A stretch of 64,000 nt of DNA from Escherichia phage IME178. Numbering within the stretch: the stretch's first letter is position 1; each line of letters opens with the position of its first letter. The notes beneath the pieces were generated by a model that was not told the DNA's origin, did no database searches, and saw only the letters and a list, made by a program, of their open reading frames with translations. The translations under genes and the position numbers were made by a program. Below are positions 23,359-46,925 of this stretch, in pieces. The DNA is taken from sequence record NC_104190.1, one strand, 5' to 3'.

Positions 23359-23367
23359 ATAATTCAT

Positions 23368-23553: not shown

Positions 23554-23655
23554 GCTTGTTTCCTCAGTTATTAATGAAAATGGTATCTGTGGCTGAATTC
23601 GATATCAGCAATGATAGCTGGTTGGCTACCGGTTTACTTAACTCTACACAGAATT

Positions 23656-23890: not shown

Positions 23891-23966
23891 TGGACGACCG
23901 CATGAGATTTGAACTCACATAAAAAGGATTTGCAATCCTTCGCCTAAGCCATTCAGCCAACGGTCG
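23891..23966 (-). tRNA. tRNA-Cys (anticodon GCA)
   Basis: Anticodon arm AAGGA-TTGCAAA-TCCTT, encoded CCA. Confidence 0.65.
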
Positions 23967-23971
23967 ATTTA

Positions 23972-24498: not shown

Positions 24499-24547
24499 TT
24501 TATGTAATTATTATACAGAACTTTTAGAAACTAAGCAACTACATTTT

Positions 24548-24826
24548 TTAAGAATTTGATGCCTTTTTTTTTTTTTTTTTCTTCTTATACTTCCACGTTA
24601 ATGGATTCTGTCGATTGTGAACGCTTGAGATCTTTGTCTCGTCAAAGTTCTTCAATACCATGTAATCACAAGATAATTGTTCTAATGGAATGTGATCACC
24701 GTCAAAAGCGTATACATAAGGCTGTTGACTAGCACTATAATGATAGACTTTGTTAATTCTACGTTTCAGCAACTTATCCGCGCAGTAAATAAAGAAGTTT
24801 TCAGGATGCATCAGCAGCTCCCTCAA
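24548..24826 (-). CDS. hypothetical protein with C-terminal poly-Lys encoded by an A17 tract
   Basis: ORF runs through a 17-nt homopolymer giving KYKKKKKKKK before the stop. Confidence 0.4.
   Translation of the reverse strand: MRELLMHPENFFIYCADKLLKRRINKVYHYSASQQPYVYAFDGDHIPLEQLSCDYMVLKNFDETKISSVHNRQNPLTWKYKKKKKKKKASNS
24564..24580. repeat. 17-nt T/A homopolymer
   Basis: Uninterrupted T17 on the plus strand inside the 3-prime end of a minus-strand ORF. Confidence 0.9.
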
Positions 24827-24828
24827 TT

Positions 24829-24903
24829 TGGTGCACCCTGTTCGTATCGAACGAACCTCTCAAGCTCTTCAGGCAAGCGCTAATCCATCTCAGCTAAAGG
24901 TGC
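24829..24903 (-). tRNA. tRNA-like gene, possibly Phe (anticodon GAA) with mismatched anticodon stem
   Basis: Good acceptor and T-arm (GTTCG-TTCGATA-CGAAC); loop CTGAAGA; two U-U mismatches in anticodon stem. Confidence 0.4.
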
Positions 24904-24909
24904 AAATTT

Positions 24910-24980
24910 TGGCAGGGGTAAAGGTATTCGAAACCTTTTCATGGGTTTTGGAGGCCCATTTGCAACCTATGCGTACCCCA
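24910..24980 (-). tRNA. tRNA-Trp (anticodon CCA)
   Basis: T-arm AAGGT-TTCGAAT-ACCTT, loop CTCCAAA, encoded CCA. Confidence 0.55.
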
Positions 24981-24989
24981 ATTATTAAT

Positions 24990-25064
24990 TGGCACACCCA
25001 ACGAGGATCGAACTCGTGTTCCCACTGTGAAAGAGTGATGTCCTAACCGCTAGACGATAGGTGC
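24990..25064 (-). tRNA. tRNA-Glu (anticodon UUC)
   Basis: Anticodon arm TCACT-CTTTCAC-AGTGG, T-arm ACGAG-TTCGATC-CTCGT, CCA. Confidence 0.6.
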
Positions 25065-25071
25065 ATTAATT

Positions 25072-25159
25072 TGGTGGGCGTTAATGGAGTCGAACCACTC
25101 GAGTCGCAATGACCAGGGATTTACAATCCCCTCCGCTACCACTTACGGAATAAACGCCC
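25072..25159 (-). tRNA. tRNA-Tyr (anticodon GUA), type II
   Basis: Acceptor GGGCGTT/AACGCCC, anticodon arm GGGGA-TTGTAAA-TCCCT, long variable arm, CCA. Confidence 0.7.
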
Positions 25160-25289
25160 ATATTTAGAAGTATTCAAAAATTTTCATTTAAACACTTTTA
25201 AATATGTTTCCAAATTAGATAAATATTATACCAAGTTTTAAGGCACTGAGCAAGTCAAATTTTAAAGAACTTGCTCAGTACTGTATTAG

Positions 25290-25565
25290 TTAGTCGAACT
25301 TAGGAGTGACAGTTAAGGAGAATGGAAGTTCGAAAACTTCTTCACCCTCATCACTAACAGTAATTACACGGCCTTTAAGTTCAGACATTGAAATATCAAT
25401 ATCAGCTTTTGCATCTGGAGCCATTCCAGCTTCAACACATTTAGCTTTAACTTCCGGCAGAAGTTCTACATCGTAGAAATAAAGCCATTCAATCTCACCT
25501 TCCCAGCCTTCCCAGGATTTACAGATTGCACTTTCAATACCAGTTGCTATAACACGATTTTGCAT
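25290..25565 (-). CDS. hypothetical acidic protein (91 aa)
   Basis: ORF downstream of promoter motif. Confidence 0.45.
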   Translation of the reverse strand: MQNRVIATGIESAICKSWEGWEGEIEWLYFYDVELLPEVKAKCVEAGMAPDAKADIDISMSELKGRVITVSDEGEEVFELPFSLTVTPKFD

Positions 25566-25655
25566 TAGTTAACTCCTTCATCAATTTATATAACTATTAT
25601 ATCAGAAATTTAAAGCAAAAGGCAAGTACATTTTTAAAAATTCTATTTGGAGGAG

Positions 25656-25862
25656 CTAAACTCCAGATTCTTCAGCCAAGTCTAGACTAATAAGAGATAT
25701 AGCCATAATTGCTGCTGCGTGCTCTTTTTCTCCAGTCTCTTTAGCTAGAGTTATAATATCAAGAATTTGCTTATGAAAGTCTGCAACCTCTTGAGTCATA
25801 CCTGCTTCAGCAATCATGCCTTTAAGCATGAAACGTTGTGCGGTAATTTCAGGATTAGCCAT
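25656..25862 (-). CDS. hypothetical protein (68 aa)
   Basis: Small ORF. Confidence 0.4.
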   Translation of the reverse strand: MANPEITAQRFMLKGMIAEAGMTQEVADFHKQILDIITLAKETGEKEHAAAIMAISLISLDLAEESGV

Positions 25863-26037
25863 GTTGTTTCTCCAGTTTCATCTTTAATAGTCTACAAATA
25901 AAATCAATGTCTTCATCCGTGCCTAAATCTCTATCTTCAAGAGTTGCCTTGAAGTTTTTAGTCAATTCCATGAGGATAACTTCTCTAGAACGACGTGTTG
26001 GCGGAGGTGGAGGTCTATACATCTTATTTCCTTAATT

Positions 26038-26114
26038 TGGTAGGGGTGGTGGGATTCGAACCCACAAAACCTGAATTTTAAGTCCAGTACCTATGCCAAT
26101 TCGATTACACCCCC
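26038..26114 (-). tRNA. tRNA with UAA anticodon loop (Leu-type) but short variable arm
   Basis: Acceptor GGGGGTG/CACCCCT, anticodon arm CTGGA-CTTAAAA-TTCAG, T-arm GTGGG-TTCGAAT-CCCAC, 5-nt variable loop, CCA. Confidence 0.55.
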
Positions 26115-26215
26115 ATGTAATCAGTTTATTAGTTGATACATATTATAGCCTAGTGAAAATCCTACTACTAGTCCCACAAACCAACCAATATAATAATCTT
26201 TTAGTTTCACAGGTA

Positions 26216-26401
26216 TTATCCTCTTTCAATATCTAGAGAAATACCACAGCTAGGATTAATACCTGTACCCTTGCAATTTGGGCAAACCCAGATATTGCAA
26301 AAAGTATCTCCTGCTTCTGCATCAGAACTTTCACCGATCCCCCTACACTCAGGGCAGGCACATTCTTCTAGCTCTTGCTTGAGTTCTTGAAACTTAGACA
26401 T
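26216..26401 (-). CDS. zinc-ribbon hypothetical protein (61 aa)
   Basis: CPEC...CPNC cysteine pairs. Confidence 0.4.
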   Translation of the reverse strand: MSKFQELKQELEECACPECRGIGESSDAEAGDTFCNIWVCPNCKGTGINPSCGISLDIERG

Positions 26402-26410
26402 ATAGTCTCC

Positions 26411-26599
26411 TTAGTCAATTACTTTTGAGGCTTCAAGGTAATCGATATAGTGTACGTTTTCTACCGTAATCATATAATCTGCCACTTTATCCATAGCTTG
26501 GGCTTCAGAGGTAGCTCTGGCTAACCTATATCCTTTTTTATATTCATCAGGGTATTCTCTATCTTGAATAAACACAACATAAACTATGTATAATTCCAC
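26411..26599 (-). CDS. hypothetical protein (about 62 aa, GTG start)
   Basis: Track ORF trimmed to GTG 26599 with AGGGGA RBS so it no longer overlaps two tRNA genes. Confidence 0.35.
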   Translation of the reverse strand: MELYIVYVVFIQDREYPDEYKKGYRLARATSEAQAMDKVADYMITVENVHYIDYLEASKVID

Positions 26600-26619
26600 T
26601 TGTAATCCCCTAATTAAGT

Positions 26620-26697
26620 TGGTGGCTCCCCGAGGATTCGAACCTACGTACCTTCCGGTTATGAGCCGGGTGCTCATACCATATGAGCTTGAGAACC
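26620..26697 (-). tRNA. tRNA with CAU anticodon (Met, fMet or Ile2)
   Basis: D-stem GCTC/GAGC, anticodon arm CCGG-CTCATAA-CCGG, CCA; T-stem weak. Confidence 0.5.
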
Positions 26698-26703
26698 AAA
26701 ATC

Positions 26704-26792
26704 TGGCGGAAGAAGTGGGAATCGAACCCACAAGGCTATATTTCAAACCGACAGATTAGCAATCTGCTGCAATACCGTTATGCTATTCTTCC
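26704..26792 (-). tRNA. tRNA-Ser (anticodon GCU), type II
   Basis: Acceptor GGAAGAA/TTCTTCC, loop TTGCTAA, long variable arm, CCA. Confidence 0.65.
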
Positions 26793-26813
26793 GAATTTAT
26801 AAGATATATTATA

Positions 26814-27332
26814 TTAGAAATTTAGCTTCATAGCAAGAAAATTTTTCAAGTTTTCGGTAGACATCTCATCCACATCTACGGGAGAAACAAAGCCGTTTAA
26901 TTTTCTAGCAAATTTTTCACCATCGGGATCATTGTCACCAATAGCTATCAATTTAAAAGGTAGTAATTTCAGTTGCTTTAATAATGCTTTTCCCGGAGAA
27001 GAACCCAACATTGCTAGGGCGGGATAACCAGCGTTATGTAACGCAACTGCCTTAAATACAGATTCAGCAATCAATACTACTTTTTCATCTCCATTGAGAG
27101 TTTCTAGCCCCCATACACACTGTGTAGTAGAATGGGTAAAATATTTAGCTTCAAATGGGCACTTACCCTGCCTTTTGGGAGCAGAGGGATTATAAGTCTG
27201 ATAGCCTCTCAACATCCCAGAGAAGTCATACAACGGGACTGTTAGCCATCCTTCCGGACTTAACCAGCAATGATATTTATCTGTATCAAATCCCCTAGAT
27301 AAGAGGTGCTGTATTAGCTCATCAACATTCAT
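26814..27332 (-). CDS. Toprim-domain protein
   Basis: Start moved to ATG 27332 (AGGAGA RBS); conserved Glu in VVLIAES and DxD in IAIGDNDPDG. Confidence 0.55.
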   Translation of the reverse strand: MNVDELIQHLLSRGFDTDKYHCWLSPEGWLTVPLYDFSGMLRGYQTYNPSAPKRQGKCPFEAKYFTHSTTQCVWGLETLNGDEKVVLIAESVFKAVALHNAGYPALAMLGSSPGKALLKQLKLLPFKLIAIGDNDPDGEKFARKLNGFVSPVDVDEMSTENLKNFLAMKLNF

Positions 27333-27371
27333 ATTTGATCTCCTAGTTAGATTTACAAATACATTATATAG

Positions 27372-27406
27372 AAAAGCCCTGCGCTCTCCAGGGAACGCAG
27401 GGCTCA
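27372..27406 (-). terminator. rho-independent terminator
   Basis: Hairpin GCCCTGCG/CGCAGGGC followed by a T-run on the minus strand. Confidence 0.55.
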
Positions 27407-27428
27407 CTTCAGATGTTACGTGCGGATA

Positions 27429-28376
27429 TTATTTATTACGCATATCCATGATCATTTGACCATCGTAGCCAGTACCTACCACAGTCTGAGGCACACCACC
27501 TTGATACTTCTGAGCACGGATCATTTCAACTTCCAGTTGCTTCCAGCGAATCATCTCAGGAGTAATGGTACGTTGCAATGCGGCGTTAGCTTCAGCTTCT
27601 TTCTTAGCTGCGTACAATTTAGCATCTGCGTCACGTTCATTAGCAATAGCTTGGTTGTTGCGAGCTTCACGATCTGCTTCTGCTTGTTTAACTTTTTGCT
27701 GTGCTTCCTGTTCAACACGAGCTAATTCAGCTTTAGCAGCATTAACTTGCTCTTCACGAACTTTGGTATTCTGTACCTGTTCCATGATTACCGGTGGCAA
27801 AGTAATATCCTGAAGGAACACCTGCTTAACTGTGTAACCATATGGGCGTGCATACTCTTCAACTTCCTGTTGAATTGCAGTTTGCAATTGAGCCTGAATT
27901 TTAGCATCAAACAAATCTTGTGCTTTAGGTACAGACTTACCAAACTCACGAATAGTAGACAGTAATTTTTCAGTTACATATTTGTCTAACGCTTGATCCT
28001 GAGTACCTGCATTAATACGGTTAATCGGTGCTTTAGAACCATCAAACTGCAACATAACAGTCAGGTCAACAGTGGATTTAAACTTATCCTGACTAGGAAC
28101 CTGAAGTTTATCTAATTTCAGAGCAATATCTTTAGTACTAAAAGTATCAAAAGAAGCAAAAGGATTTACAATATGAAAGCCCGGCAATACAGGGTTAGGA
28201 TCAACTTTACCCAAGAAAGTCTGGGTCTTAACAGTACCGTCTTGAACAACGGTATAGGAGTTAAGAGCTAGAACTAAACCTGCTAAACCAACTACAGCAC
28301 CAATACCCCAACGTTTAATAGTGCGAATTACTTTTTGCTCAGAAGTCAATTCTTTCATATTTTTAGTATTAAACAT
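27429..28376 (-). CDS. SPFH/band-7 (prohibitin/HflC-like) membrane protein
   Basis: N-terminal transmembrane anchor, SPFH-like core, long Ala/Glu/Gln-rich coiled coil. Confidence 0.65.
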   Translation of the reverse strand: MFNTKNMKELTSEQKVIRTIKRWGIGAVVGLAGLVLALNSYTVVQDGTVKTQTFLGKVDPNPVLPGFHIVNPFASFDTFSTKDIALKLDKLQVPSQDKFKSTVDLTVMLQFDGSKAPINRINAGTQDQALDKYVTEKLLSTIREFGKSVPKAQDLFDAKIQAQLQTAIQQEVEEYARPYGYTVKQVFLQDITLPPVIMEQVQNTKVREEQVNAAKAELARVEQEAQQKVKQAEADREARNNQAIANERDADAKLYAAKKEAEANAALQRTITPEMIRWKQLEVEMIRAQKYQGGVPQTVVGTGYDGQMIMDMRNK

Positions 28377-28410
28377 ATATTTCCTTTGTTTTAGCTACAG
28401 TTAATAAAAT

Positions 28411-28485
28411 TGGCCGAGGTGACAGGATTCGAACCTGCATAAAGGAATTTAGAAGACTCCTGCCTCTCCCTTAGACTACACCCCG
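28411..28485 (-). tRNA. tRNA-Arg (anticodon UCU)
   Basis: T-arm GCAGG-TTCGAAT-CCTGT, anticodon arm AGGAGT-CTTCTAA-ATTCCT, CCA. Confidence 0.65.
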
Positions 28486-37795: not shown

Positions 37796-40126
37796 TTAAA
37801 TAGTACAACCGCCTGATGCACAACCGGCTGCTTCCTCTCCTGCACCTCCACCATTTGCGGTATTGAAGTTAGCATAATAGAAAGTTTTCCACCCGTATTT
37901 AACAGCAGTCATGAAATCACGAACTACTACTGGGCCAGGAATAACTTCATTCTCAAACTTGGTGTAGTCGTAGTACATATTCGTACTGATAGACTGACTG
38001 AAGAATTTCTGCATAGTTGCTACCCATTTGATCAACTCGATACGATCTACATCATAAGCCAGTTTATAGCTCATTAACGTTTCCCAATCGGTTGCACCCG
38101 GGGCAATTGCAATTACTTTATTTACTGCACTACCCTTGATAGATACAATCTTACGAGGCGGTTCAATAGAGTTAGTAACACCTAACAGAACAGAAGAACT
38201 TTCTCCCGGCATCTGAGCAGTCAGAACAGAGTTACGCATACCGTATTTCAGAATATCTGCACGCAGAGACTCCCAATCCATTTCTAGACCTACGGATACC
38301 AGTTCATCAACAGTTTTCTTATACGTGTCGATTACTAGAATTCCTTTAGATGGTTTAGTACGATCAAACCACTCACATGCGCCCTGTTCTTTAGCCAGGC
38401 GTACAGAGGCTTTATGCAGGAAGTAAGACAGTTTTTCAGCCTCACGGTGAATCCAGTTACGGGCTTCAATACCTTCGTAAGCCAGACCTTCTGCTGCCAT
38501 TGCACCCGCTGCGTTCATCAGGCCAATACCAACATTACGACGTTTCTTAGCCGTATATTCCATAGTTGGGAACGGATAATCCTGAATTTCAATAATTGTG
38601 TCAACAAATTTCAGAAGGATGTAGCAAGTTTTTTCCCACTCAGCCAGAGATTCCATGCGTCCAAGTACAACACCACCTAAGTTACATAGAGATACTTCAC
38701 CAATATCCTCCGGCTTCATTTGATCAAGCTGCTCTTTTGTCTTATACAGCTCTGTAATGTGGTGGAATGGACGTGTAGGCTGAGTAATTTCAACACAAAG
38801 GTTTGTCATACGGATCGGATCAAGGAAGTTACCGTGACGGTTAGATTCCCCAATGTGGTGAGCATACATACGTCCTGTTTCCATCCTGATACGTAGCCAA
38901 GTATCTAGGATTTCTTTTGCAGAGACCCTAGGAGCTGCTGGAACTGTTTTTCCTTCGTGGTCGATCTTTGTAAGAGATGCCACACGTTTCTCCGCTGCCA
39001 CGTAGATTTCTTCAAATTTAGCCTCGTCATCACTATAAAACGCTTCATGAACTTCTGGAGCATAGAAGTATGACATTAGCGTAATATCTTCGTTTTTAAG
39101 ATAACGTTTTAACAAAAGATTGTTAAAGCTCAGAGAATAATCCATCTTATCGATTTTATTCTCATCTGTAGCACGTTGTTGCTTAACCTGCATTAATTGA
39201 ATGATTTCAGGGTCGAAGTATGGATAAGACACTGTAGCAGAACCACCACGAGTTTGCTGGGTATTGGCCTTTACTGAGCGATCAATGTGTCGATAATATG
39301 GCAGTTTTCCGGAATGCGGGAATGCCCCATTTCGCACCGGATCAGCAATTGATCGGCTTTCAAGATGATACCCGATTCCCGCTCTGGCTGCAACCATTTT
39401 GAAGACGATGTGCTCGGCGGTGTCGATTGAATCCAACGTGTCAGTGGAATCCACGAGGCAGCAACTAGCAAATCCACGATCACTAGAGCGCAGACCAACC
39501 AGTGGCGGCGTAGGAACGTTGATTTTGTGGAGTGACATTGCGTTGTAGAGGTCGATTGCATCTAGAATTGTCCAGTTAGGTTGAGATAGCATCGCCATTG
39601 CCATACCCATGTAGGCGAATTGCGGGGTTTCATAAATTTCACCAGTAGCTATATTACGACGGGAATACTTATCAAAGAACTGCTTCAGCCCACCACTAGT
39701 AAAAAGACGGTCACGATCATGGTCGATAACCTGATTCAGAGCTTCAAATTGCTCATCTGTAATCCATGCACTCATATCTTCCCATGCACCTACGCTAACC
39801 ATGTGATCATGGAAGAAGCGTAAAGAAGGTGGTTCGAAAGAATCATAAAGGCGTTTACGCATTTGCGCAAGACGTAATTCCTTTGCTGGCACATCGTATG
39901 CTGGATTATCTTTGATAAGACTTTCAGCAGCTTTAATTAATGCATCCATCAGAGTGTCGGAATCTACAACCCCTTTAGGTAGGGTTTTTTGAGCAGCCAT
40001 AGTAATGGCTGACCAGCTTACATCAACTGTTTTGCAACCATACTCTGCCCAACCATTGAGTTTTTCAGGAGCAAAGTCTTCTACAGTACCGTCACGTTTA
40101 ATTACTTTTTCAATGCGATGGCTCAT
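37796..40126 (-). CDS. nrdA: ribonucleotide reductase class Ia large subunit
   Basis: ATP-cone start MSHRIEKVIKRDG and NrdA-like core; start moved to ATG 40126 with AAGGAAA RBS. Confidence 0.85.
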   Translation of the reverse strand: MSHRIEKVIKRDGTVEDFAPEKLNGWAEYGCKTVDVSWSAITMAAQKTLPKGVVDSDTLMDALIKAAESLIKDNPAYDVPAKELRLAQMRKRLYDSFEPPSLRFFHDHMVSVGAWEDMSAWITDEQFEALNQVIDHDRDRLFTSGGLKQFFDKYSRRNIATGEIYETPQFAYMGMAMAMLSQPNWTILDAIDLYNAMSLHKINVPTPPLVGLRSSDRGFASCCLVDSTDTLDSIDTAEHIVFKMVAARAGIGYHLESRSIADPVRNGAFPHSGKLPYYRHIDRSVKANTQQTRGGSATVSYPYFDPEIIQLMQVKQQRATDENKIDKMDYSLSFNNLLLKRYLKNEDITLMSYFYAPEVHEAFYSDDEAKFEEIYVAAEKRVASLTKIDHEGKTVPAAPRVSAKEILDTWLRIRMETGRMYAHHIGESNRHGNFLDPIRMTNLCVEITQPTRPFHHITELYKTKEQLDQMKPEDIGEVSLCNLGGVVLGRMESLAEWEKTCYILLKFVDTIIEIQDYPFPTMEYTAKKRRNVGIGLMNAAGAMAAEGLAYEGIEARNWIHREAEKLSYFLHKASVRLAKEQGACEWFDRTKPSKGILVIDTYKKTVDELVSVGLEMDWESLRADILKYGMRNSVLTAQMPGESSSVLLGVTNSIEPPRKIVSIKGSAVNKVIAIAPGATDWETLMSYKLAYDVDRIELIKWVATMQKFFSQSISTNMYYDYTKFENEVIPGPVVVRDFMTAVKYGWKTFYYANFNTANGGGAGEEAAGCASGGCTI

Positions 40127-40268
40127 TTGGCTTTCCTTTTTATAGTTATCAGGATTTAAGGAATATTCTACTTTATTATCGGTCATTAGGCAAATAAAAT
40201 TTTCTGATAGAAAAGGCCCGAGTATTTTCATACCCAGGCCCTGTATATTACCAGTCTAGCTTTTTAGC

Positions 40269-40490
40269 TTATTCAATTACTTTAGCTCTAGCTACTTCTT
40301 TTAATAGAATATCTATGGAGGTGCTCAGCTCGTTATAATTGAATGGTTTATTTGGATTTGAGGTTACAATTTTCCACGCTAGGGTTGTCTTAGGACTTTC
40401 TTCCCCTTCCTTACGTGTAATCATATTAGCAGCACTCAGTGAAGTACGATGTATTTTAGTTTTACGGCTCAGATGAACGACGTTTCCCAT
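40269..40490 (-). CDS. hypothetical protein
   Basis: Start moved to ATG 40490, directly after the phoH stop. Confidence 0.4.
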   Translation of the reverse strand: MGNVVHLSRKTKIHRTSLSAANMITRKEGEESPKTTLAWKIVTSNPNKPFNYNELSTSIDILLKEVARAKVIE

Positions 40491-40491
40491 A

Positions 40492-41244
40492 TTACACCTT
40501 CCCCATGTCTTTAAAGATGTCATAGAATGCTTTAGACTCAACAGAACGAACGTTATCAATCAATTCGATCATTGAGAATGGGGCATTTTCGTATTTCTCA
40601 TAGACTTCCATAAGGAGTGCTAGACCTGAGTCACCTTTAATGTCTTTCTGAGCTATATCTCCGCAGATAATTAAACGGCAGTCTTGCCCTACACGAGTTA
40701 GAAGACAAATCATTGCCTCAACGGAAATATTCTGAGCTTCATCGACAATTACATAGGAGTTGTTGAAAGTTCTGCCACGAGCATGTTCGACAGCCAAAAA
40801 TTTAATTTTCTGACGTTCGACGTATCCCTTATAGGCATGATCGCCGATGGCCCATTTCATACCATCAGCTATTGGCTCCAACCAAGGCTCTAGCTTTTCT
40901 GCTAGATCACCAGGAAGCATACCAAGAGACTTACCTAGAGGTTCATTAGGACGTACGAGGATCACTTGCTCAATATCTGAGTGAATGTCTACGAGTTCCT
41001 GAGCTGCAAGAACGGACGGGATAAAGGTTTTACCAGTACCTGGCTCACCAATACCCACAGTCACTGTGTTGTTCTTGATCATATTGATATATGATTTTTG
41101 CTCGCGGTTTTTACCTACTAGGGATTTAGCAACTGGGTTAGCGTAATCATTAGAAAAATCAGCCTGAATTACGTTATTCTCATACTTGTTGCCACGCTTT
41201 CTTGAACCATTGCGGTTCTCTCTTTTTTGACGTGCTTTTCCCAT
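40492..41244 (-). CDS. phoH: PhoH-like ATPase
   Basis: Walker A GEPGTGKT and PhoH-like core; start moved to ATG 41244 with AGGAG RBS. Confidence 0.8.
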   Translation of the reverse strand: MGKARQKRENRNGSRKRGNKYENNVIQADFSNDYANPVAKSLVGKNREQKSYINMIKNNTVTVGIGEPGTGKTFIPSVLAAQELVDIHSDIEQVILVRPNEPLGKSLGMLPGDLAEKLEPWLEPIADGMKWAIGDHAYKGYVERQKIKFLAVEHARGRTFNNSYVIVDEAQNISVEAMICLLTRVGQDCRLIICGDIAQKDIKGDSGLALLMEVYEKYENAPFSMIELIDNVRSVESKAFYDIFKDMGKV

Positions 41245-41299
41245 AAATAACACTCCTATAGTGTACTTCGCTAACAGAGGATCAACAAAAAGATCTTGT

Positions 41300-41350
41300 T
41301 TATCAACTTACAAATATATTATACCAATATATACAGTAAAAAGCAACTAC
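41300..41350 (-). promoter_or_regulatory. T5-type sigma70 promoter for the phoH/nrd operon
   Basis: Minus-strand TTGCTT (41341-41346), 17 bp, TATAAT (41318-41323), conserved leader. Confidence 0.5.
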
Positions 41351-41538
41351 AATTTTAAATAAGCCTATGATATTGCATTTAAATAAAAAATTTGCTTGCT
41401 TTTAACGTGAGATGTGTGATACTAGATAATCATTTTATATCGCGTGCACGAGTGCGTGATTATACAATTTTTAATAGAAATTGGCAAATAAAATTTTTTG
41501 ACTCAGATCATGTTACAGAACTTTATAGTAAAATATTG

Positions 41539-41567
41539 TTGACATCCGCCCTCGAATGAGTTATAAT
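41539..41567 (+). promoter_or_regulatory. consensus sigma70 promoter upstream of nrdD
   Basis: TTGACA (41539-41544), 17-bp spacer, TATAAT (41562-41567). Confidence 0.6.
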
Positions 41568-41596
41568 AGTAGTCTTAGTTAGAGAAGGAGAGTATA

Positions 41597-43471
41597 ATGA
41601 ATCGCAATGAAGAACTAAAGTATAAAGAAATGCAGGCGTTAATTAGAAACTGCAAAGAGATTATCGAAGGGTCAGCAGATGAAGAGCTGCTGTTTAATAA
41701 TGCCAATAAACCCTCAGAACGTTTCCCTACACAAAGGGATATGCTTGCAGGTGAATTGAGTAAATATCTGATTCTAGAAGAAATGCCAATTCAGATTCGA
41801 AATGCTCATATGATTGGGGATATTCATTTCCATGATGCTGATTATGCTGCATTAGGCATGACTAACTGTTGTCTGGTAGCTCTGGAAGATATGTTGAAGA
41901 ATGGTATGAAGGTTGGTAATGCTGAAATTAGCACTCCAAACTCTATCACTACTGCGGCGGCTATTACTGCTCAGATTATCACTCAAGTTAGCTCCCATCA
42001 GTATGGTGGTACTTCTGTAGACCGCCTTGATGAAGTATTAGCCCCTTATGTTCGTAAATCCTATGACAAAAATCATGCGTTTGCAAAACGTTGGACTAAG
42101 GATGAAGCCAAAGCATCCGTAATGGCTACGGAAATGACTGAGAAAGAAGTCTATGACGCTTGTCAGGGTTTAGAATATGAAATCAATACCATGTTCAACT
42201 CTAATGGTCAGAGTCCATTTATTACCTTTGGTTTTGGTCTAGGAACTTCTTGGGAGGCACGTCTAGTACAGAAAGCAATACTAAAAGTACGTATGGATGG
42301 TTTAGGTATCAATAAACGTACAGCTATCTTCCCGAAACTAGTATTTGTGCTTCGTGATGGCGTTAACATGAAACCAGGAGATGTTAATTATGACATCAAG
42401 AAGTTAGCTATGAAATGTACGTCTGAACGTATGTATCCAGATTATATCAGCTATGATAAGGTTGTGGAAGTTACTGGAGACTATAAAGTTTCTATGGGCT
42501 GCCGTTCATTCCTAGCTGCTACAGAAGATGGTGAAACTGCTGGTCGTAATAACTTAGGTGTTGTTTCTGTAAACTTGCCTAGAATTGCTATCGAAGCTGA
42601 AGGAAATATTGACCTATTCTTTGATTTGCTTGAGCTACGTGTGGATACAGCGTTAAAAGCATTGGAGTGGAGAGTTGATCGCTTAAAATACATCCAAGCT
42701 AAAGCTGCACCCATCCTCTATATGTCAGGAGCCTTTGGGTTACGCTTGGGGCCTGATGAGTATGTATTCGATCATTTCTATAACCGTGCTTCTGTATCTC
42801 TAGGGTATATTGGTTGCCATGAAATGCTACAGTTCATGTTTGGCAAAGATGTAGACACAATGTCCGAGACCTGCATCAAGTTTGTTCAGCGTGTATTGCA
42901 GTACATGCGGGATAGAGTCGATCAGAAGAAGGAAGAAACTAAGTTAGGTTATAGCCTGTATGCTACACCATCAGAATCCCTATGTGATCGTTTTTGTCGT
43001 CTAGACCGTGAATATTTCCCGGAGCATGAAGATATTCTATCCAAAGGATACTATACTAATTCTCATCACCTTGATGTGGAACGTAAAGTTGCTCCCAATG
43101 TGAAATTTGATTATGAGTCTAACTTTACGCCGATCGCTTCTGGTGGATGTATTTCCTATGTAGAGCTACCAGATATGAAACGATTCCCAGATGCACTGGA
43201 ATGGGTTATTAATTATGCTGCTAGTAAAGTTCATTACTTCGGTATTAATACTCCAGTGGATTCTTGTGGTAAATGTGGATTCTTAGGTGAAACAATAGCA
43301 TCCGAAGATGGATTTAAGTGCCCTATCTGTGGTAATCATGACCCCGAAACTCTTGAAGTAACTCGTCGAGTTTGTGGGTATCTTGGAAATCCTGGTGCTC
43401 GTCCATTTAACCCAGGCAAACAGCATGAGGTTATGGGCAGGGTGAAACATCAGGATATTCGAGCTAAATAA
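41597..43471 (+). CDS. nrdD: anaerobic ribonucleoside-triphosphate reductase (class III)
   Basis: C-terminal glycyl-radical motif RVCGYLG; Cys-rich zinc site CGKCG...CPICG. Confidence 0.85.
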   Translation: MNRNEELKYKEMQALIRNCKEIIEGSADEELLFNNANKPSERFPTQRDMLAGELSKYLILEEMPIQIRNAHMIGDIHFHDADYAALGMTNCCLVALEDMLKNGMKVGNAEISTPNSITTAAAITAQIITQVSSHQYGGTSVDRLDEVLAPYVRKSYDKNHAFAKRWTKDEAKASVMATEMTEKEVYDACQGLEYEINTMFNSNGQSPFITFGFGLGTSWEARLVQKAILKVRMDGLGINKRTAIFPKLVFVLRDGVNMKPGDVNYDIKKLAMKCTSERMYPDYISYDKVVEVTGDYKVSMGCRSFLAATEDGETAGRNNLGVVSVNLPRIAIEAEGNIDLFFDLLELRVDTALKALEWRVDRLKYIQAKAAPILYMSGAFGLRLGPDEYVFDHFYNRASVSLGYIGCHEMLQFMFGKDVDTMSETCIKFVQRVLQYMRDRVDQKKEETKLGYSLYATPSESLCDRFCRLDREYFPEHEDILSKGYYTNSHHLDVERKVAPNVKFDYESNFTPIASGGCISYVELPDMKRFPDALEWVINYAASKVHYFGINTPVDSCGKCGFLGETIASEDGFKCPICGNHDPETLEVTRRVCGYLGNPGARPFNPGKQHEVMGRVKHQDIRAK

Positions 43472-43477: not shown

Positions 43478-43512
43478 CAGCCGGGTTGCTAGTCGACCTG
43501 GCTTTTATTTTA
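43478..43512 (+). terminator. rho-independent terminator
   Basis: Imperfect hairpin AGCCGGG/CCTGGCT followed by a T-run. Confidence 0.45.
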
Positions 43513-43570
43513 TTTGCTTTCAGCCAAAAATTTATATATAATAGATTTATAAATTTGATAGGAGAAAGCT

Positions 43571-43783
43571 ATGAGAGTTCACAAGGTAGATAAAGAACGT
43601 ATCTATTTTATTATGGATTCTGGGGCATATGGTTCCATTCTCCGTGAGGATATAACTAAATTATGTTTAGTAAATACTTGGATGGACGAAGGGAAGATTG
43701 ATCCTAGGGTGGGATTGTGCTTATCTGAGCCCTCCCTTTCTATTGCTAGTGCAGAAATTGAAATGTTTGAGGAACAAGAATGA
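43571..43783 (+). CDS. hypothetical protein (70 aa)
   Basis: ORF with GGAGA RBS. Confidence 0.45.
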   Translation: MRVHKVDKERIYFIMDSGAYGSILREDITKLCLVNTWMDEGKIDPRVGLCLSEPSLSIASAEIEMFEEQE

Positions 43784-43983
43784 AAAACGTAAAACATCTT
43801 AAATATCGCTTAATTTACAATGGGCGTATGGAGACAGAAGATCTGGCCCAGTTAGCTATTAACTCTAATGAGGTTACAGTGCGTGCGCTGGCAATTGAAA
43901 AGTTGCGTGCCTCTTATGAAAATCGTGTTATGGAACTAGAGGAGAAACTTTATGGACTTCTTGAATCAGAATCTACCAGATAA
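43780..43983 (+). CDS. hypothetical protein (67 aa)
   Basis: Start overlaps upstream stop. Confidence 0.45.
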   Translation: MKNVKHLKYRLIYNGRMETEDLAQLAINSNEVTVRALAIEKLRASYENRVMELEEKLYGLLESESTR

Positions 43984-44173
43984 GGGTTTAAACTCCGCTT
44001 TGGAAAACGCATTAATACAGTACTGGGAAACTGGTTATAAGGATGGTGTTGAATCCTGCGCTACTATGCTAGAAGTTATTGCTAATACCTTAATGGAGAA
44101 AGGCAATAAAGAATTAGCTGAGCTATTAGACAGTATTGGGCAAAACTTCAGAGAACAGGTGAAAAATGCGTAG
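43952..44173 (+). CDS. hypothetical protein (73 aa)
   Basis: ORF in plus-strand array. Confidence 0.4.
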   Translation: MDFLNQNLPDKGLNSALENALIQYWETGYKDGVESCATMLEVIANTLMEKGNKELAELLDSIGQNFREQVKNA

Positions 44174-44981
44174 ATTAATTATTATTAGCGGTGCAGGTTT
44201 GAGTGTTGAAAGTGGTGTACGAGCTTTTCGTACTGATACTGCTAGTGGTAAAGCATTGTGGGATGATTATGATCTAGAGGAAGTATGTAATATTCATGCC
44301 TTTCGTGGTAATTTTTATCATAAAACCCATATGTTTTACAACAACCGTCGTGAAGAGCTAAAAACTGTTGAACCCAATCTTGCGCATTTGCGTATTGGTG
44401 AATGGTATAAACAATATCCAGGTCAAGTAGTAAACTTGACCACTAACGTTGATGACCTTATTGAGCGTGCTGGCGTTCCACATAGTGACATTCTACACAT
44501 TCACGGATATTTGAAAGAGGTTGTTGTAGCTGATAGCTACAATAGTAGCAATAAACGGATTATTGATGTAGGATACAGTTCTATTGATCCAGATGATTAT
44601 AAATGGGTTAAGCCTAATGTAATCTTCTTTGGAGAGCATGCCCCTGCATACGCAGAAATGTATAATGTTTTTGATGGTATTACCAGTCAAGATATGATCA
44701 TTGTGGTTGGTTGCTCTAACCAAGTAATTAACTTCTACTGGGAATTATTTCCTGTTCTTAATAGGACTGCTGCGAAATTTATGGTAGTTAACTACTATGA
44801 TAGTGCCCTAGCAGCAGAGCCAGGCTATCAAGGTATGACTCGTAGTGAGATGTACCAGTTGGAAGAACGCGGTGTCCCTTACTGGAGTAAAGGTGCGGTA
44901 GATGCTTTCAGTGACCCTGATTTTATTGCTCGTGTAGAAGCTCATTTAGAGGGTAGACCTTATGTGTCAGGAAATAAGTAA
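44166..44981 (+). CDS. Sir2-family NAD-dependent protein
   Basis: Sirtuin motifs GAGLSVESGVRAFR, TTNVDDL and HIHG; no Zn-ribbon CxxC pairs seen. Confidence 0.65.
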   Translation: MRRLIIISGAGLSVESGVRAFRTDTASGKALWDDYDLEEVCNIHAFRGNFYHKTHMFYNNRREELKTVEPNLAHLRIGEWYKQYPGQVVNLTTNVDDLIERAGVPHSDILHIHGYLKEVVVADSYNSSNKRIIDVGYSSIDPDDYKWVKPNVIFFGEHAPAYAEMYNVFDGITSQDMIIVVGCSNQVINFYWELFPVLNRTAAKFMVVNYYDSALAAEPGYQGMTRSEMYQLEERGVPYWSKGAVDAFSDPDFIARVEAHLEGRPYVSGNK

Positions 44982-45474
44982 TACTCCAATTATTTTTCTA
45001 GATATTGATGGGGTGCTCAATTCGAGCATCTCCCACCATCATGCACCTGATAATGAAAAGATTTTCTTTGGGAGTGACTGGGTTTTCAAACCGCTTCTCA
45101 AGGCTTTTCAAGATTTTATTCGTCCTTCCTCGATAATGATTGTTGGGGTATCCTCATGGTTCTCTGTCAGGAATGAGATGGAGAACGTTCAGATTATGAC
45201 CGGATTAGGTCTTATCGATCGTTTTCTTGGTACAACGGATTTTACTGGGGGTGGGCTATCTAGAGGTAATTCTGTTCTCCGTTTCGTTGAAAAGCATAAG
45301 CTCAAACATTGGTGTGTACTTGATGATGCGGGTGCTATGATGTATCAGTACCCAACGGTTATAGTCAACGGTAGGACTGGGATAAATCTTCAGGATTTAA
45401 GAGCTGTTAGCTATATGCTAGAATTTAGCCCAGATCTTGAAATGTGTAAATCCTTACAACAATTTAAGGTGTAA
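44962..45474 (+). CDS. HAD-like phosphatase/hydrolase
   Basis: HAD motif I FLDIDGVL near the N-terminus, later VLDD acidic motif. Confidence 0.5.
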   Translation: MCQEISNTPIIFLDIDGVLNSSISHHHAPDNEKIFFGSDWVFKPLLKAFQDFIRPSSIMIVGVSSWFSVRNEMENVQIMTGLGLIDRFLGTTDFTGGGLSRGNSVLRFVEKHKLKHWCVLDDAGAMMYQYPTVIVNGRTGINLQDLRAVSYMLEFSPDLEMCKSLQQFKV

Positions 45475-45486
45475 ATATGTTCAATA

Positions 45487-45903
45487 ATGTATTCTCTAAA
45501 GAAGCTAACCCAGTTTTGGTTAACTTTTGGCGTACTCTCCCAGCTAGTGTATAATGAGGCTATTAACTCTTTGAAAATATGGTGTGAGAATAACGAAATC
45601 TCCTTTGCTTTTAAAGATGATATTGATGAGGCCCCCTGTATTGGTTTAATTGTGCAGGTAGAGGATGGCCTTGAAGAGATTGTGGGCTGGAAAGAGTTAG
45701 ACGAAATGGGCTTAGTTTTTGCGTTAAACTATAAGCTGTTTATGCCTGCTAAGCATCGCCTCGTTGTTAACTATAAAAATAGTGAATCTCCTGGTTTTCA
45801 GGTTAATGAACGTTATGGTTGGTCTTACTTACCGGAAGAAGTAAATGAGGGGATTCAGAAACTTCGACGTTTCGGGTATATGATCCCAGGTTTAACTGCT
45901 TAA
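45487..45903 (+). CDS. hypothetical protein, paralog A
   Basis: Shares PCIG, W-x-EL-x-MGL and C-terminal G-Y-x-PGL motifs with the next ORF. Confidence 0.5.
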   Translation: MYSLKKLTQFWLTFGVLSQLVYNEAINSLKIWCENNEISFAFKDDIDEAPCIGLIVQVEDGLEEIVGWKELDEMGLVFALNYKLFMPAKHRLVVNYKNSESPGFQVNERYGWSYLPEEVNEGIQKLRRFGYMIPGLTA

Positions 45904-45912
45904 GGAGGCAGA

Positions 45913-46302
45913 ATGGAACAAGTATACTGGCGTCAGATTGACCCTAGTTTGGTGAAGCGTGCGGAGAAGCTGCTACAACGTTGGTTGGGGGTAAGACAAG
46001 CCTCCTTCACTTTTCCTGAGCAGCAAACAGATGATCCCTGTATTGGTGTTTTCCTATCCGGCTACGCCGGGGAATGGGAGATGGACTGGAATGAATTGTC
46101 CGCTATGGGTTTAATTGTTGCCCTAAACTTCTCTATATTCCATCCACGTGGTTTGGCCATATGTCGTGTGCCTGATGACGGTTGTTCGCCCCATCTTTTA
46201 CAGGTGGAAGATGATACTTGGGAGTATACTCCGGATATTCTTAAAGAAGCTAAAGAACAATTAAACCGTGTTGGGATCTATGTTCCGGGATTAAATGACT
46301 AA
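45913..46302 (+). CDS. hypothetical protein, paralog B
   Basis: Tandem duplicate of the preceding ORF by shared motifs. Confidence 0.5.
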   Translation: MEQVYWRQIDPSLVKRAEKLLQRWLGVRQASFTFPEQQTDDPCIGVFLSGYAGEWEMDWNELSAMGLIVALNFSIFHPRGLAICRVPDDGCSPHLLQVEDDTWEYTPDILKEAKEQLNRVGIYVPGLND

Positions 46303-46328
46303 TGATTTTTATTAGCTGAACTATGATT

Positions 46329-46356
46329 ACCGAGTCATTTTGGCTCGGTTTTATCC
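46329..46356 (+). terminator. rho-independent terminator
   Basis: Hairpin CCGAG/CTCGG followed by TTTTAT. Confidence 0.45.
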
Positions 46357-46396
46357 GTACTCAAGACCAATGATAGCACCATCCGGAAAATTTTAC

Positions 46397-46425
46397 TTGC
46401 AGGATGCCCAAAATCTTGATATAAT
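46397..46425 (+). promoter_or_regulatory. T5-type sigma70 promoter
   Basis: TTGCAG -35-like, 17 bp, TATAAT (46420-46425), conserved leader. Confidence 0.5.
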
Positions 46426-46925
46426 ATTTATATTGAATTGAGAGACATTAGTAAAAATTGATTTTGCTAATTTTTCTTGTTTACAATCCGCGATACGGAA
46501 CAGTTAGGCTGCCCCATTAAGGGTTGTTTTAACTGTTACATGTTAGTTTTTAAACAAATAGTTAATAGAATACTTAGCGATCTGCGCCCCATAGGAACCC
46601 TGGTAAGGCCTCGAAGCAACCTAGTATGAGGTGGTTGTGAAGTGAGATGGGAGGAGTGAAAAACTACCGAGACGTGATTCTGTAAGTTATATTGCATCTA
46701 GTATGAGCTAGTATATGAAGCATTAGGTGAGCAAATCTGGCTTAGCGGCCATCCTCAAGGATTTGTGCGATATAGCAAAGCAGCAGCGCAGCGTGAAAGT
46801 GGAAGTTGCCACCCCACTTCAGTATTTGCGATTAATTTGTTGAGAAATTGACAGTAACAGTTGTTCTATTCTTTCTGAATAGTCCTAAAGAAAATTTATT
46901 TCATTTCCAACACAGGAGTATTGTT

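What the first reader, a model, noticed from the sequence alone, without database searches (positions are those of the whole stretch)
44166..45474. Sir2-like NAD-binding protein overlapping a HAD-like hydrolase: candidate NAD-linked host-modification or counter-defence pair
Clear sirtuin motifs (GAGxS...FR, TTNVDDL, HG) but no zinc-ribbon, followed with a 20-nt overlap by an ORF carrying the HAD DxDG motif. Sir2 domains act in several bacterial defence systems as NAD-consuming effectors; a phage copy paired with a phosphatase could deacylate, ADP-ribosylate or process NAD-derived products.
Basis: partly seen in the sequence, partly recalled or inferred. Interest (0 to 1): 0.6.

Follow-up and report, generated by a model that had tools for sequence, protein, structure and literature searches.

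The report
T5-type phage sirtuin plus HAD phosphatase
These are the well-conserved but never biochemically tested Sir2-like (T5.102) and small HAD phosphatase (T5.105) genes of a T5-like phage; their neighbourhood was already described and predicted to act in RNA repair, and the 20-base overlap seen here is only a recent deletion scar.

Summary
ORF 44166-44981 is a sirtuin (Pfam SIR2, E 7e-25) with its catalytic residues intact and no zinc-binding cysteines. ORF 44962-45474 is a capless HAD phosphatase (Pfam HAD_SAK_2, E 5e-20) with all four HAD motifs. They overlap by 20 nt.

The window is a Tequintavirus (T5-like phage), and the genes are the orthologues of T5.102 and T5.105. Iyer et al. 2022 (PMC9503650) already described this sirtuin plus "Swiss-army-knife" HAD neighbourhood. 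They predicted a Tpt1/KptA-like, NAD-dependent role in RNA repair. I found no experimental work on either protein.

New here:
- The overlap is a microhomology deletion of about 330 bp that phage T5 still carries.
- The two genes occur together only in the T5-like lineage: 0 of 38 other Sir2 loci and 0 of 136 other HAD loci hold the partner.
- Sugarlandvirus keeps the Sir2 without the HAD.
- The Sir2 body is a swapped mosaic cassette, 53% identical between phages whose flanking genes are 90-98% identical.
- The Sir2 is closest to CobB/SIRT5, keeps the class III YxxR signature, and is not a defence-type SIR2.

Verdict: a real, ordinary, already catalogued gene pair of unproven function. The coupling between the two genes is weaker than the overlap suggests.

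The parts
43479..43503 (+). Terminator hairpin of the upstream nrdD gene; marks the start of the Sir2 transcription unit
   Evidence: Terminator-like site with 10 pairs followed by a T-run. It is conserved with the terminator annotated in T5.
43514..43542 (+). Probable early promoter (TTGCTT, 17 nt, TATAAT) of the seven-gene unit
   Evidence: It aligns with the promoter region annotated in T5 upstream of T5.100. The -35 hexamer is too weak for the simple consensus scan.
43571..43783 (+). Small ORF (70 aa), phrog_20147, unknown function
43780..43983 (+). Small ORF (67 aa), phrog_5236, unknown function
43952..44173 (+). Small ORF (73 aa), phrog_5827, unknown function; overlaps the Sir2 start by 8 nt
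44166..44981 (+). Phage-clade sirtuin (T5.102 orthologue): zinc-less, class III-like, with NAD-binding and catalytic residues intact
   Evidence: Pfam SIR2 E 6.8e-25. Best solved relative is CobB 1s5p, E 2.6e-17 by sequence. AF2 model pLDDT 89.7; Foldseek finds CobB at E 7e-18, then SIRT5 and Sir2Af. Invariant G9 A10 G11 S13 F21 R22 Y58 R61 R62 N94 D96 H113 F155 E157.
44290..44969 (+). Mosaic cassette inside Sir2 (from about residue 42 to the C-terminus): 66% identical or unalignable to Epseptimavirus-type relatives, whose flanks are 85-90% identical
   Evidence: blastn segments; per-gene protein identities
44949..44981 (+). Junction region: Shine-Dalgarno GAGGG (44949-44953), new HAD start ATG (44962), microhomology GGAAATAAGTAATA, Sir2 stop (44979-44981). 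This is the scar of an approximately 330-bp deletion that removed the T5.103 and T5.104 equivalents.
   Evidence: Three-way alignment of window, T5 and SIA3lw; T5 annotation
44962..45474 (+). Capless HAD phosphatase of the HAD_SAK_2 family (T5.105 orthologue)
45487..45903 (+). DUF7415 protein A (T5.106 orthologue), two internal repeats, unknown function
   Evidence: Pfam PF24187 E 2e-29; phrog_2502
45913..46302 (+). DUF7415 protein B (T5.107 orthologue), paralogue of A
   Evidence: Pfam PF24187 E 8e-32. Found next to Sir2 in HAD-less Sugarlandvirus and near the HAD in Sir2-less Aeromonas phages.
46330..46352 (+). Terminator hairpin (CCGAGTC-ATTTT-GGCTCGG-TTTT) that ends the unit
   Evidence: Identical to the terminator annotated in T5 after T5.107

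Best explanation
**Shown.** The window is a Tequintavirus. The two ORFs are the orthologues of T5.102 (Sir2-like) and T5.105. They are co-transcribed in a seven-gene early unit running from a promoter near 43514 to a terminator at 46330. The unit holds three tiny ORFs, Sir2, the HAD and two DUF7415 paralogues.

The Sir2 belongs to a phage-specific sirtuin clade. It keeps every residue needed to bind NAD+ and expel nicotinamide, and it keeps the class III Tyr-x-x-Arg pocket for an anionic group. It has lost the zinc ligands. The HAD is a complete, capless Asp-nucleophile phosphomonoesterase.

**Inferred; this is the mechanism I commit to, at about 0.4.** The unit works in NAD+-dependent processing of damaged RNA ends, as proposed by Iyer et al. 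2022.
1. The sirtuin transfers ADP-ribose from NAD+ onto an anionic acceptor, a 2'-phosphate left on tRNA or RNA cut by host metal-independent RNases.
2. His113 then activates the ribose 2''-OH, exactly as in deacylation. The phosphate leaves as ADP-ribose 1'',2''-cyclic phosphate. This is Tpt1/KptA-like chemistry on a sirtuin scaffold.
3. The HAD removes a terminal phosphate. Its target is either the RNA 3'/2' end or the ADP-ribose phosphate by-product.

The two enzymes would be loosely cooperating parts of one pathway, not an obligate complex.
For: - **Identity and expression.** About 95% nucleotide identity to Tequintavirus genomes, with 445 matching phage records. T5 annotation of the promoter, T5.100-T5.107 and the terminator; both regulatory elements are conserved in the window.
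- **Sir2 competence.** Pfam, PDB and fold matches. Invariant GAGxS, FR, N94, D96, H113, FGE and GxS across the clade, including distant members.
- **Anion pocket.** Y58 and R61 align with CobB Y92 and R95 (alignment with an offset of 25, cross-checked against the mutation names in the 6rx* entries).
- **HAD competence.** All four motifs are invariant or nearly so. The fold is closest to capless HADs: MDP-1, SCP1, UBLCP1, Fcp1.
- **RNA-repair association of the same Sir2 clade in unrelated phages.**
  - In rV5-like JeffSchatz, an Rnl1-type RNA ligase (PF09511), cREC (PF20274) and Sir2 are contiguous on one strand. A PNK-like kinase and a Metallophos esterase lie alongside, next to a tRNA cluster.
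  - In jumbo phage fHe-Yen9-04, NAMPT, a small gene annotated 'RNA ligase', Sir2 and a Nudix hydrolase lie together.
  - In my clustering of 31 non-T5 Sir2 loci, the recurrent neighbours are a ligase (13 loci), Metallophos esterases (12 and 12), an AAA_33 kinase (11) and NAMPT (11).
- **Literature.** The neighbourhood, explicitly including T5-like phage SP15 with the SAK-like HAD, is published with this prediction (PMC9503650). HAD_SAK is described as the stand-alone RNA-end phosphatase of phages (PMC7824862).
- **Phage specificity.** The clade is nearly absent from 185,579 bacterial genomes.
Against: - I found no biochemical or genetic test of this clade.
- T5-like genomes have no detectable homologue of the RNA ligase, kinase or NAMPT that accompany the Sir2 elsewhere (annotation). 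The T5 version would therefore be an incomplete pathway that relies on host enzymes.
- The retained FGE loop and YxxR signature are exactly what a protein desuccinylase or demalonylase would keep.
- Both proteins are acidic: Sir2 clade median pI 5.3 and net charge -11; HAD family median pI 5.1. This is not typical of RNA-binding enzymes.
- Sir2 and the HAD are not co-inherited outside one lineage. Sugarlandvirus keeps Sir2 without the HAD.
- The Sir2 body has been swapped independently of the HAD.
- T4-type Rnl1 plus kinase plus esterase healing does not in itself produce a 2'-phosphate (established knowledge of the T4 pathway).
Confidence: 0.4

Rival explanations
1. Protein lysine deacylase. 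The phage sirtuin does what its closest relatives CobB and SIRT5 do. It removes succinyl, malonyl or acetyl groups from lysines of host or phage proteins early in infection. Possible targets are adenylate-forming enzymes and ligases, whose catalytic lysines are blocked by acylation, as in the CobB-Acs paradigm. The HAD phosphatase is a separate enzyme that merely shares the operon.
For: - Best sequence and fold matches are all bona fide deacylases.
- NCBIfam hits are all CobB-type models.
- The catalytic His, the FGE substrate loop and the class III YxxR signature are invariant.
- The protein is acidic.
- Sir2 and the HAD are uncoupled in evolution.
- Recurrent adjacency to ligases could equally reflect enzyme-substrate relations.
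- An earlier in-silico study of Vibrio phage Sir2 argued for this role (PMC5107563).
Against: - NCBIfam scores (100 bits) are far below the CobB cut-offs of 243-320 bits, so this is not a CobB equivalog.
- The zinc ligands are lost and the small domain is remodelled, with a variable insertion of about 35 aa.
- The host already has CobB.
- This reading does not explain why the clade repeatedly sits among cyclic-phosphate, kinase, ligase and Nudix genes.
Confidence: 0.35
2. Small-molecule NAD or nucleotide metabolism. The Sir2 acts as an NAD+ glycohydrolase or ADP-ribose donor that makes or destroys a soluble NAD-derived molecule, for example to interfere with host immune signalling. The HAD dephosphorylates a nucleotide or ADP-ribose phosphate.
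For: - NAMPT and a Nudix hydrolase lie next to the Sir2 in other phages.
- The HAD's best structural match, MDP-1, is a small sugar-phosphate phosphatase (substrate range from my own knowledge).
- In other phages HAD_SAK_2 genes sit beside thymidylate synthase (td) or ThyX. Here the unit lies among the nrdD, nrdAB, td and frd genes.
Against: - There is no similarity to defence NADase SIR2 domains.
- T5-like phages depend on NAD+ for their own NAD-dependent DNA ligase, and some carry an NAD+-rebuilding NARP3 module (PMC13464706). A free-running NADase would therefore be self-harming.
- The conserved acyl or anion pocket argues for a specific acceptor, not for water.
Confidence: 0.15
3. No functional pair at all. 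Sir2 and the HAD are unrelated accessory genes. They are neighbours only because of inherited synteny in T5-like phages, and they were brought into contact here by a deletion.
For: - The overlap is a deletion scar.
- Spacing varies among relatives from -20 nt through roughly 150 and 260 nt to about 320 nt.
- 0 of 38 non-T5 Sir2 loci hold the HAD, and 0 of 136 non-T5 HAD loci hold a Sir2.
- Sugarlandvirus lacks the HAD in the same synteny.
- The histories are discordant: Sir2 is 53% identical where the HAD is 90-92% identical.
- There is no Sir2-HAD fusion among the 150 best HAD representatives.
Against: - All 28 T5-like Sir2 loci and all 19 T5-like HAD loci keep both genes in one transcription unit. 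The distant relative Pectobacterium phage My1 does too, with a HAD only 44% identical.
- Both families are independently linked to RNA-end chemistry.
- DUF7415 is found with each of them separately, which suggests a shared module.
Confidence: 0.45

Closest known systems
[quoted passage not shown]
   Same: The same two gene families, in the same phage group, in the same order. This window is another instance of that neighbourhood.
   Different: Nothing substantive. Added here: the pairing is confined to one lineage, the overlap is a deletion scar, the HAD is missing in Sugarlandvirus, and the Sir2 is a swapped cassette.
E. coli CobB and human SIRT5 (class III sirtuin deacylases)
   Same: Rossmann core; GAGxS, FR, xNxD, HG, FGE and GxS motifs; the YxxR pocket. 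Foldseek E 7e-18, TM-score 0.71 by query length and 0.84 by target length.
   Different: About 24% identity. No zinc-binding cysteines. The V-x-P substrate motif is replaced by V-I-x-F. An extra C-terminal helical region is present. Scores are far below the NCBIfam CobB cut-offs.
Tpt1/KptA RNA 2'-phosphotransferase
   Same: Only the proposed chemistry: NAD+ as ADP-ribose donor to an anionic oxygen, followed by attack of the ribose 2''-OH. This is an inference and the published hypothesis.
   Different: An unrelated fold (ART superfamily) with no sequence similarity. Tpt1-like activity has not been shown for any sirtuin.
Defence-associated SIR2 NADases (ThsA, DSR1/2, SIR2-HerA, SIR2-APAZ)
   Same: They belong to the same superfamily and use NAD+.
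   Different: No PADLOC model matches. None appears among the top 50 structural matches, which are all deacylases. The protein is stand-alone, with no sensor or partner domain.
Capless (C0) HAD phosphatases: MDP-1, SCP1/Fcp1 CTD phosphatases, the T4 Pnkp phosphatase domain
   Different: 10-16% identity. There is no kinase domain, unlike T4 Pnkp. The substrate is unknown. No solved structure is detectable by sequence.

Membership tests
Sirtuin / SIR2 family (Pfam PF02146) | Profile match above the curated threshold | tested here: met
   88.5 bits against a cut-off of 24, covering positions 1-178 of the 180-position model
Sirtuin / SIR2 family (Pfam PF02146) | NAD-binding and catalytic residues: GAGxS, FR loop, xNxD, catalytic His | tested here: met
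   G9 A10 G11 S13, F21 R22, N94 D96 and H113 are invariant in 26 clade members and in distant relatives
Sirtuin / SIR2 family (Pfam PF02146) | Four-Cys zinc ribbon in the small domain | tested here: not met
   Only two Cys in the protein. The CobB Cys positions align to V120 and to a gap. A Cys-free beta ribbon is predicted in its place.
Class III sirtuins (CobB/SIRT5 type) | Tyr-x-x-Arg motif that binds acidic acyl groups | tested here: met
   Y58 and R61 are invariant and align with CobB Y92 and R95. In the jumbo-phage branch R61 is Leu.
Class III sirtuins (CobB/SIRT5 type) | Equivalog-level similarity to CobB | tested here: not met
   Best NCBIfam score is 100 bits against cut-offs of 243-320
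Class III sirtuins (CobB/SIRT5 type) | NAD-dependent lysine deacylase activity | not testable with these tools
   Needs an enzyme assay
Defence-associated SIR2 NADases | Match to defence SIR2 models, or fusion or adjacency to a sensor or partner (SLOG, HerA, APAZ/pAgo, DSR domains) | tested here: not met
   No PADLOC hit. The neighbours are small ORFs, the HAD and DUF7415 proteins.
SirTM (macrodomain-linked ADP-ribosylating sirtuins) | Adjacent or fused macrodomain | tested here: not met
   None of the seven ORFs of the unit matches Macro
HAD superfamily phosphatases | Motifs I (DxD), II (S/T), III (K/R) and IV (DD) | tested here: met
   D14, D16, S64/S65, R101 and D121 are invariant, and D122 is at least 90% conserved
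HAD superfamily phosphatases | Rossmannoid HAD fold | tested here: met
HAD_SAK_2 (PF18143, 'Swiss Army Knife' RNA-repair HAD) | Profile match above the curated threshold | tested here: met
   72.7 bits against a cut-off of 27.5, covering positions 1-138 of 139
HAD_SAK_2 (PF18143, 'Swiss Army Knife' RNA-repair HAD) | Phosphatase activity on RNA ends | not testable with these tools
   This is a prediction from gene context only
Phage sirtuin RNA-repair neighbourhood (Iyer et al. 2022) | Sirtuin of the phage-specific clade | tested here: met
   57-65% identical to the rV5-like and Mydovirus-type sirtuins, 42% to a jumbo-phage one. Nearly absent from bacterial genomes.
Phage sirtuin RNA-repair neighbourhood (Iyer et al. 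2022) | Conserved linkage to an RNA-end-processing gene (here the SAK-like HAD) | tested here: met
   28 of 28 T5-like Sir2 loci carry the HAD within 1.3 kb downstream. The linkage is absent outside the lineage.
Phage sirtuin RNA-repair neighbourhood (Iyer et al. 2022) | A sealing enzyme (RNA ligase) in the same genome | tested here: not met
   No homologue of the partner ligase or kinase in the window or in most of a T5-like genome. None is annotated. Sensitivity is limited to tblastn.

The most novel reading that the evidence does not exclude
The phage-clade sirtuin is the first sirtuin that acts on nucleic acid. It would be an NAD+-dependent RNA 2'-phosphotransferase, convergent with Tpt1/KptA. 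In T5-like phages it would work with the HAD_SAK_2 phosphatase, and perhaps the DUF7415 proteins, to heal tRNAs cut by host anticodon-nuclease defences. The cassette-like swapping of the Sir2 body between near-identical phages would then reflect an arms race with those defences.
Probability: 0.3. Interest if true: 0.8.

Novelty: already known. Interest (0 to 1): 0.3.

Why it matters
About a thousand sequenced phages carry this sirtuin clade, including the model phage T5 and many phage-therapy candidates. Nobody has measured what it does.

If the published prediction is right, it would be a new sirtuin chemistry acting on RNA, and a further phage answer to tRNA-cleaving immunity. If it is a deacylase, it would be a case of a phage rewriting host protein acylation.

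For this scan the practical message is narrower. The finding is real but already catalogued. The overlap that drew attention carries no functional weight. Many database records that list 'Sir2' twice at this locus label the HAD wrongly.

Tried and rejected
- **Defence-type Sir2.** Rejected: no PADLOC hit, and the structural neighbours are deacylases.
- **Translationally coupled ancestral pair.** Rejected: the overlap arose by a microhomology deletion, and gene spacing varies among relatives.
- **Independent co-occurrence of Sir2 and the HAD.** I looked in 31 viral and 7 genomic non-T5 Sir2 loci, and in 60 viral and 76 metagenomic non-T5 HAD loci. I found none. Caveats: flanks were at most 8 kb, and 47 of the 76 metagenomic loci are shorter than 8 kb.
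- **Sir2-HAD fusion proteins.** None among the 150 best of 14,108 HAD_SAK_2 representatives. The longer proteins are tandem HADs, plus one Metallophos fusion.
- **RNA ligase, kinase or NAMPT partners in T5-like DNA.** None found; only a distant Metallophos phosphatase matched.
- **DUF7415.** No PDB relative by sequence. The homologue search returned only stand-alone T5-like proteins. Its function is still unknown.
- **PDB sequence search for the HAD.** No hit. The fold search was needed.
- **Literature.** Searches for experimental work on T5 Sir2 or on phage sirtuins found only genome notes, one in-silico study (PMC5107563) and the comparative-genomics prediction.
- **Simple promoter scan.** It did not pick up the operon promoter. 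I relied instead on conservation with the T5 annotation.
Full report
**1. What the window is**

The 2.9 kb around the finding is about 95% identical to Tequintavirus genomes such as Salmonella phage SIA3lw and Escherichia phage mar004NP2. It matches 445 phage records.

The window carries the T5-type early region:
- a 22-tRNA array on the minus strand;
- phoH, nrdAB, td and frd on the minus strand;
- nrdD, the Sir2 unit and the replication genes on the plus strand.

The GC skew changes sign where the two strands diverge, near 41 kb.

**2. The observation**

ORF 44166-44981 (271 aa) is a sirtuin:
- Pfam SIR2, E 6.8e-25, and phrog_2162, E 3e-121.
- The best solved relative is E. coli CobB (1s5p, E 2.6e-17), followed by Sir2Af1/2 and SIRT5.
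- There are only two cysteines. The CobB zinc ligands align to Val or to a gap. The AlphaFold model (pLDDT 89.7) keeps a Cys-free beta ribbon.

ORF 44962-45474 (170 aa) is a HAD phosphatase:
- Pfam HAD_SAK_2, E 5e-20.
- All four HAD motifs are conserved.
- The model has pLDDT 95.3.

The 20-nt overlap is real.

**3. The overlap is a scar, not a design feature**

In T5 itself the genes are T5.102 and T5.105, with two small ORFs (T5.103 and T5.104) between them.

A three-way alignment shows how the overlap arose:
- T5 has a short direct repeat, GGAA(G/A)TAAG(A/T)AATA, at the end of Sir2 and again at the start of the HAD gene.
- The window has lost the roughly 330 bp between the two copies.
- The original HAD start (ATG GAA ATA AGT..., MEISNTP) is gone.
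- An ATG that lies out of frame inside the Sir2 3' end now starts the protein (MCQEISNTP). It sits behind a GAGGG that T5 also has at that position.
- SIA3lw carries a smaller deletion of the same interval.

Among related loci the gap between the two genes is -20 nt, roughly 150 and 260 nt, or about 320 nt.

The two genes are nevertheless co-transcribed. The T5-annotated terminator and promoter after nrdD, and the terminator after T5.107, are conserved in the window. Together they bound a seven-gene unit from 43571 to 46302.

**4. Is it a conserved pair?**

By tblastn the Sir2 is in 1,006 phage records. These include T5-like, rV5-like and Mydovirus-type phages, Vibrio schizo-T4-like phages and jumbo phages. 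The HAD is in 499 records, mostly T5-like phages plus Aeromonas, Proteus and Morganella T4-like phages.

I fetched flanks of up to 8 kb and scanned them with profile HMMs of both families:

| Loci scanned | Partner gene found |
|---|---|
| T5-like Sir2 loci (28), including distant Pectobacterium phage My1 | HAD in 28 of 28 |
| T5-like HAD loci (19) | Sir2 in 19 of 19 |
| Other viral Sir2 loci (31) | HAD in 0 |
| Genomic Sir2 loci (7) | HAD in 0 |
| Other viral HAD loci (60) | Sir2 in 0 |
| Metagenomic HAD loci (76; 29 of them at least 8 kb) | Sir2 in 0 |

Further points:
- Klebsiella Sugarlandvirus, also a member of Demerecviridae, has the same synteny (phoH, nrdD, small ORF, Sir2, two DUF7415 genes, origin-binding protein) with no HAD.
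- HAD_SAK_2 is a very large family: 14,108 clusters at 50% identity with E of 1e-3 or better. Nearly all members are stand-alone proteins of about 160 aa. None of the longer ones I checked is fused to a sirtuin.
- The histories of the two genes disagree. In Epseptimavirus-type loci NrdD is up to 98% identical, the HAD 90-92% and the primase 90-95% to the window's proteins. The Sir2 is only 52-53% identical, which is less than to the Sir2 of Mydovirus-type phages (61-65%).
- At the DNA level identity is 88% over the first 125 nt of Sir2. It drops to 66% and then becomes unalignable, and it returns to 85% exactly at the HAD start.

The Sir2 body is therefore a replaceable cassette at a fixed locus. 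Selection keeps some Sir2 there, but not a co-adapted Sir2-HAD couple.

**5. What kind of sirtuin is it?**

- It is not a defence NADase: there is no PADLOC hit.
- It is not a CobB equivalog: 100 bits against cut-offs of 243-320.
- It is not macrodomain-linked.
- Structurally it is nearest to CobB (Foldseek E 7e-18) and SIRT5.
- It keeps the class III Tyr-x-x-Arg signature. Y58 and R61 are invariant and align with CobB Y92 and R95. The numbering was checked against the A76G and Y92A mutant names of the 6rx* entries, using the alignment. The motif also holds in rV5-like and MAG-derived relatives. In jumbo phages R61 is Leu.
- The clade is essentially phage-only. A scan of 185,579 bacterial genomes gave two MAG contigs at 37-42% identity, and otherwise only ordinary cellular sirtuins.

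**6. Context of the same clade elsewhere, and the literature**

- In rV5-like phage JeffSchatz the order is Metallophos esterase, PNK-like kinase, then on one strand an Rnl1-type RNA ligase (PF09511), cREC (PF20274) and Sir2. An ATP-dependent DNA ligase follows, and the cluster lies beside a tRNA cluster.
- In jumbo phage fHe-Yen9-04 the order is NAMPT, a 149-aa gene annotated 'RNA ligase', Sir2, Nudix hydrolase and PhoH.
- My neighbour clustering of 31 non-T5 Sir2 loci recovered a ligase (13 loci), two Metallophos families (12 each), an AAA_33 kinase (11) and NAMPT (11).

This reproduces what Iyer, Burroughs, Anantharaman and Aravind published in 2022 (PMC9503650, section 3.7.3). They described a distinct phage sirtuin clade in three neighbourhood types. 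[quoted passage not shown] They proposed that the sirtuin acts like KptA/Tpt1 in removing 2'-phosphates during RNA repair. The same group describes the SAK HAD as the stand-alone linear-phosphate phosphatase of phage RNA repair (PMC7824862).

I found no experimental paper on T5.102, T5.105 or any member of the clade.

**7. Mechanism**

I commit, at about 0.4, to the RNA-end-processing reading.

The chemistry is plausible, though this step is inference. A sirtuin already makes an anionic or carbonyl oxygen attack C1'' of NAD+. It then uses the catalytic His to drive the ribose 2''-OH onto the attached group. With a 2'-phosphate as acceptor, this is the Tpt1 reaction. The YxxR pocket could hold a phosphate as readily as a carboxylate.

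The partner genes form a coherent chain for the ends and for the ADP-ribose cyclic-phosphate by-product. Those partners are 2H or cREC, a kinase, a ligase, an esterase or the HAD, and a Nudix hydrolase.

Against this reading:
- T5-like phages lack the ligase and the kinase.
- Both proteins are acidic.
- Everything conserved in the Sir2 is equally what a desuccinylase-type protein deacylase needs.

The deacylase rival gets about 0.35. A soluble NAD or nucleotide-metabolism role gets about 0.15. Independently of what each enzyme does, I put about 0.45 on the two not being functionally coupled at all.

**8. Verdict**

The feature is real, correctly read at the motif level, and already known as a predicted but untested phage module. 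The specific hook, an overlapping and therefore coupled pair, does not hold.

The open biochemical question is whether a sirtuin acts on RNA. It is interesting, but it is not new to this window.

Noticed in passing
window 45487-45903 and 45913-46302: Two tandem DUF7415 paralogues (T5.106 and T5.107), each with two internal repeats of about 53 aa. They are the only genes linked to both partners separately. They follow Sir2 directly in HAD-less Sugarlandvirus, and lie about 1.7 kb downstream of the HAD in Sir2-less Aeromonas phages. Their function is unknown, and several records mis-annotate them as 'tail tube protein'.
   Followed up: partly
window 44962-45474 (relatives in many RefSeq phage records): phrog_18062 is labelled 'Sir2 (NAD-dependent deacetylase)' but matches the C-terminal half of the HAD protein (E 5e-58). 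This probably explains why many records list 'Sir2' twice at this locus. It is a propagated mis-annotation.
   Followed up: partly
window 41597-43471 (nrdD): NrdD is 96-100% identical in most close relatives but only about 60% identical in a subset of phages that are otherwise at least 93% identical (L003, L004, L006, L008, L018, L020, L038). This looks like a second swapped allele next to the Sir2 cassette.
   Followed up: no
window 17986-28485, minus strand: An array of 22 tRNA genes covering most amino acids, typical of T5-like phages. It is relevant to the tRNA-damage hypothesis, but I did not analyse it further.
   Followed up: no
window 46303-46850: A gap of about 550 nt with few ORFs lies between the operon terminator and the 955-aa primase/origin-binding ORF. 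The listed TTG start of that ORF (46848) is probably upstream of the true start. The gap contains a conserved promoter-like element, TTGCAG...TATAAT, shared with T5.
   Followed up: no
window about 40000-42000: GC skew switches from negative to positive at the divergent phoH (minus strand) / nrdD (plus strand) boundary, following the direction of transcription.
   Followed up: no
window 40492-41253 (minus strand); L227 7046-8500: A PhoH-like ATPase gene lies within a few kb of the phage-clade Sir2 in T5-like phages, in Sugarlandvirus and in the jumbo Yersinia phage. This could be coincidence or a further recurring neighbour.
   Followed up: no
L026-L031, L058 (Mydovirus-type loci), e.g. L026 8750-10078: In this group a 443-aa ATP-dependent ligase starts immediately after Sir2. 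It matches the DNA_ligase_A_M and OB-fold domains, which makes it DNA-ligase-like and not Rnl1-like. The literature describes the group's partner as a tRNA ligase, so the nucleic-acid target of this ligase deserves a check.
   Followed up: no
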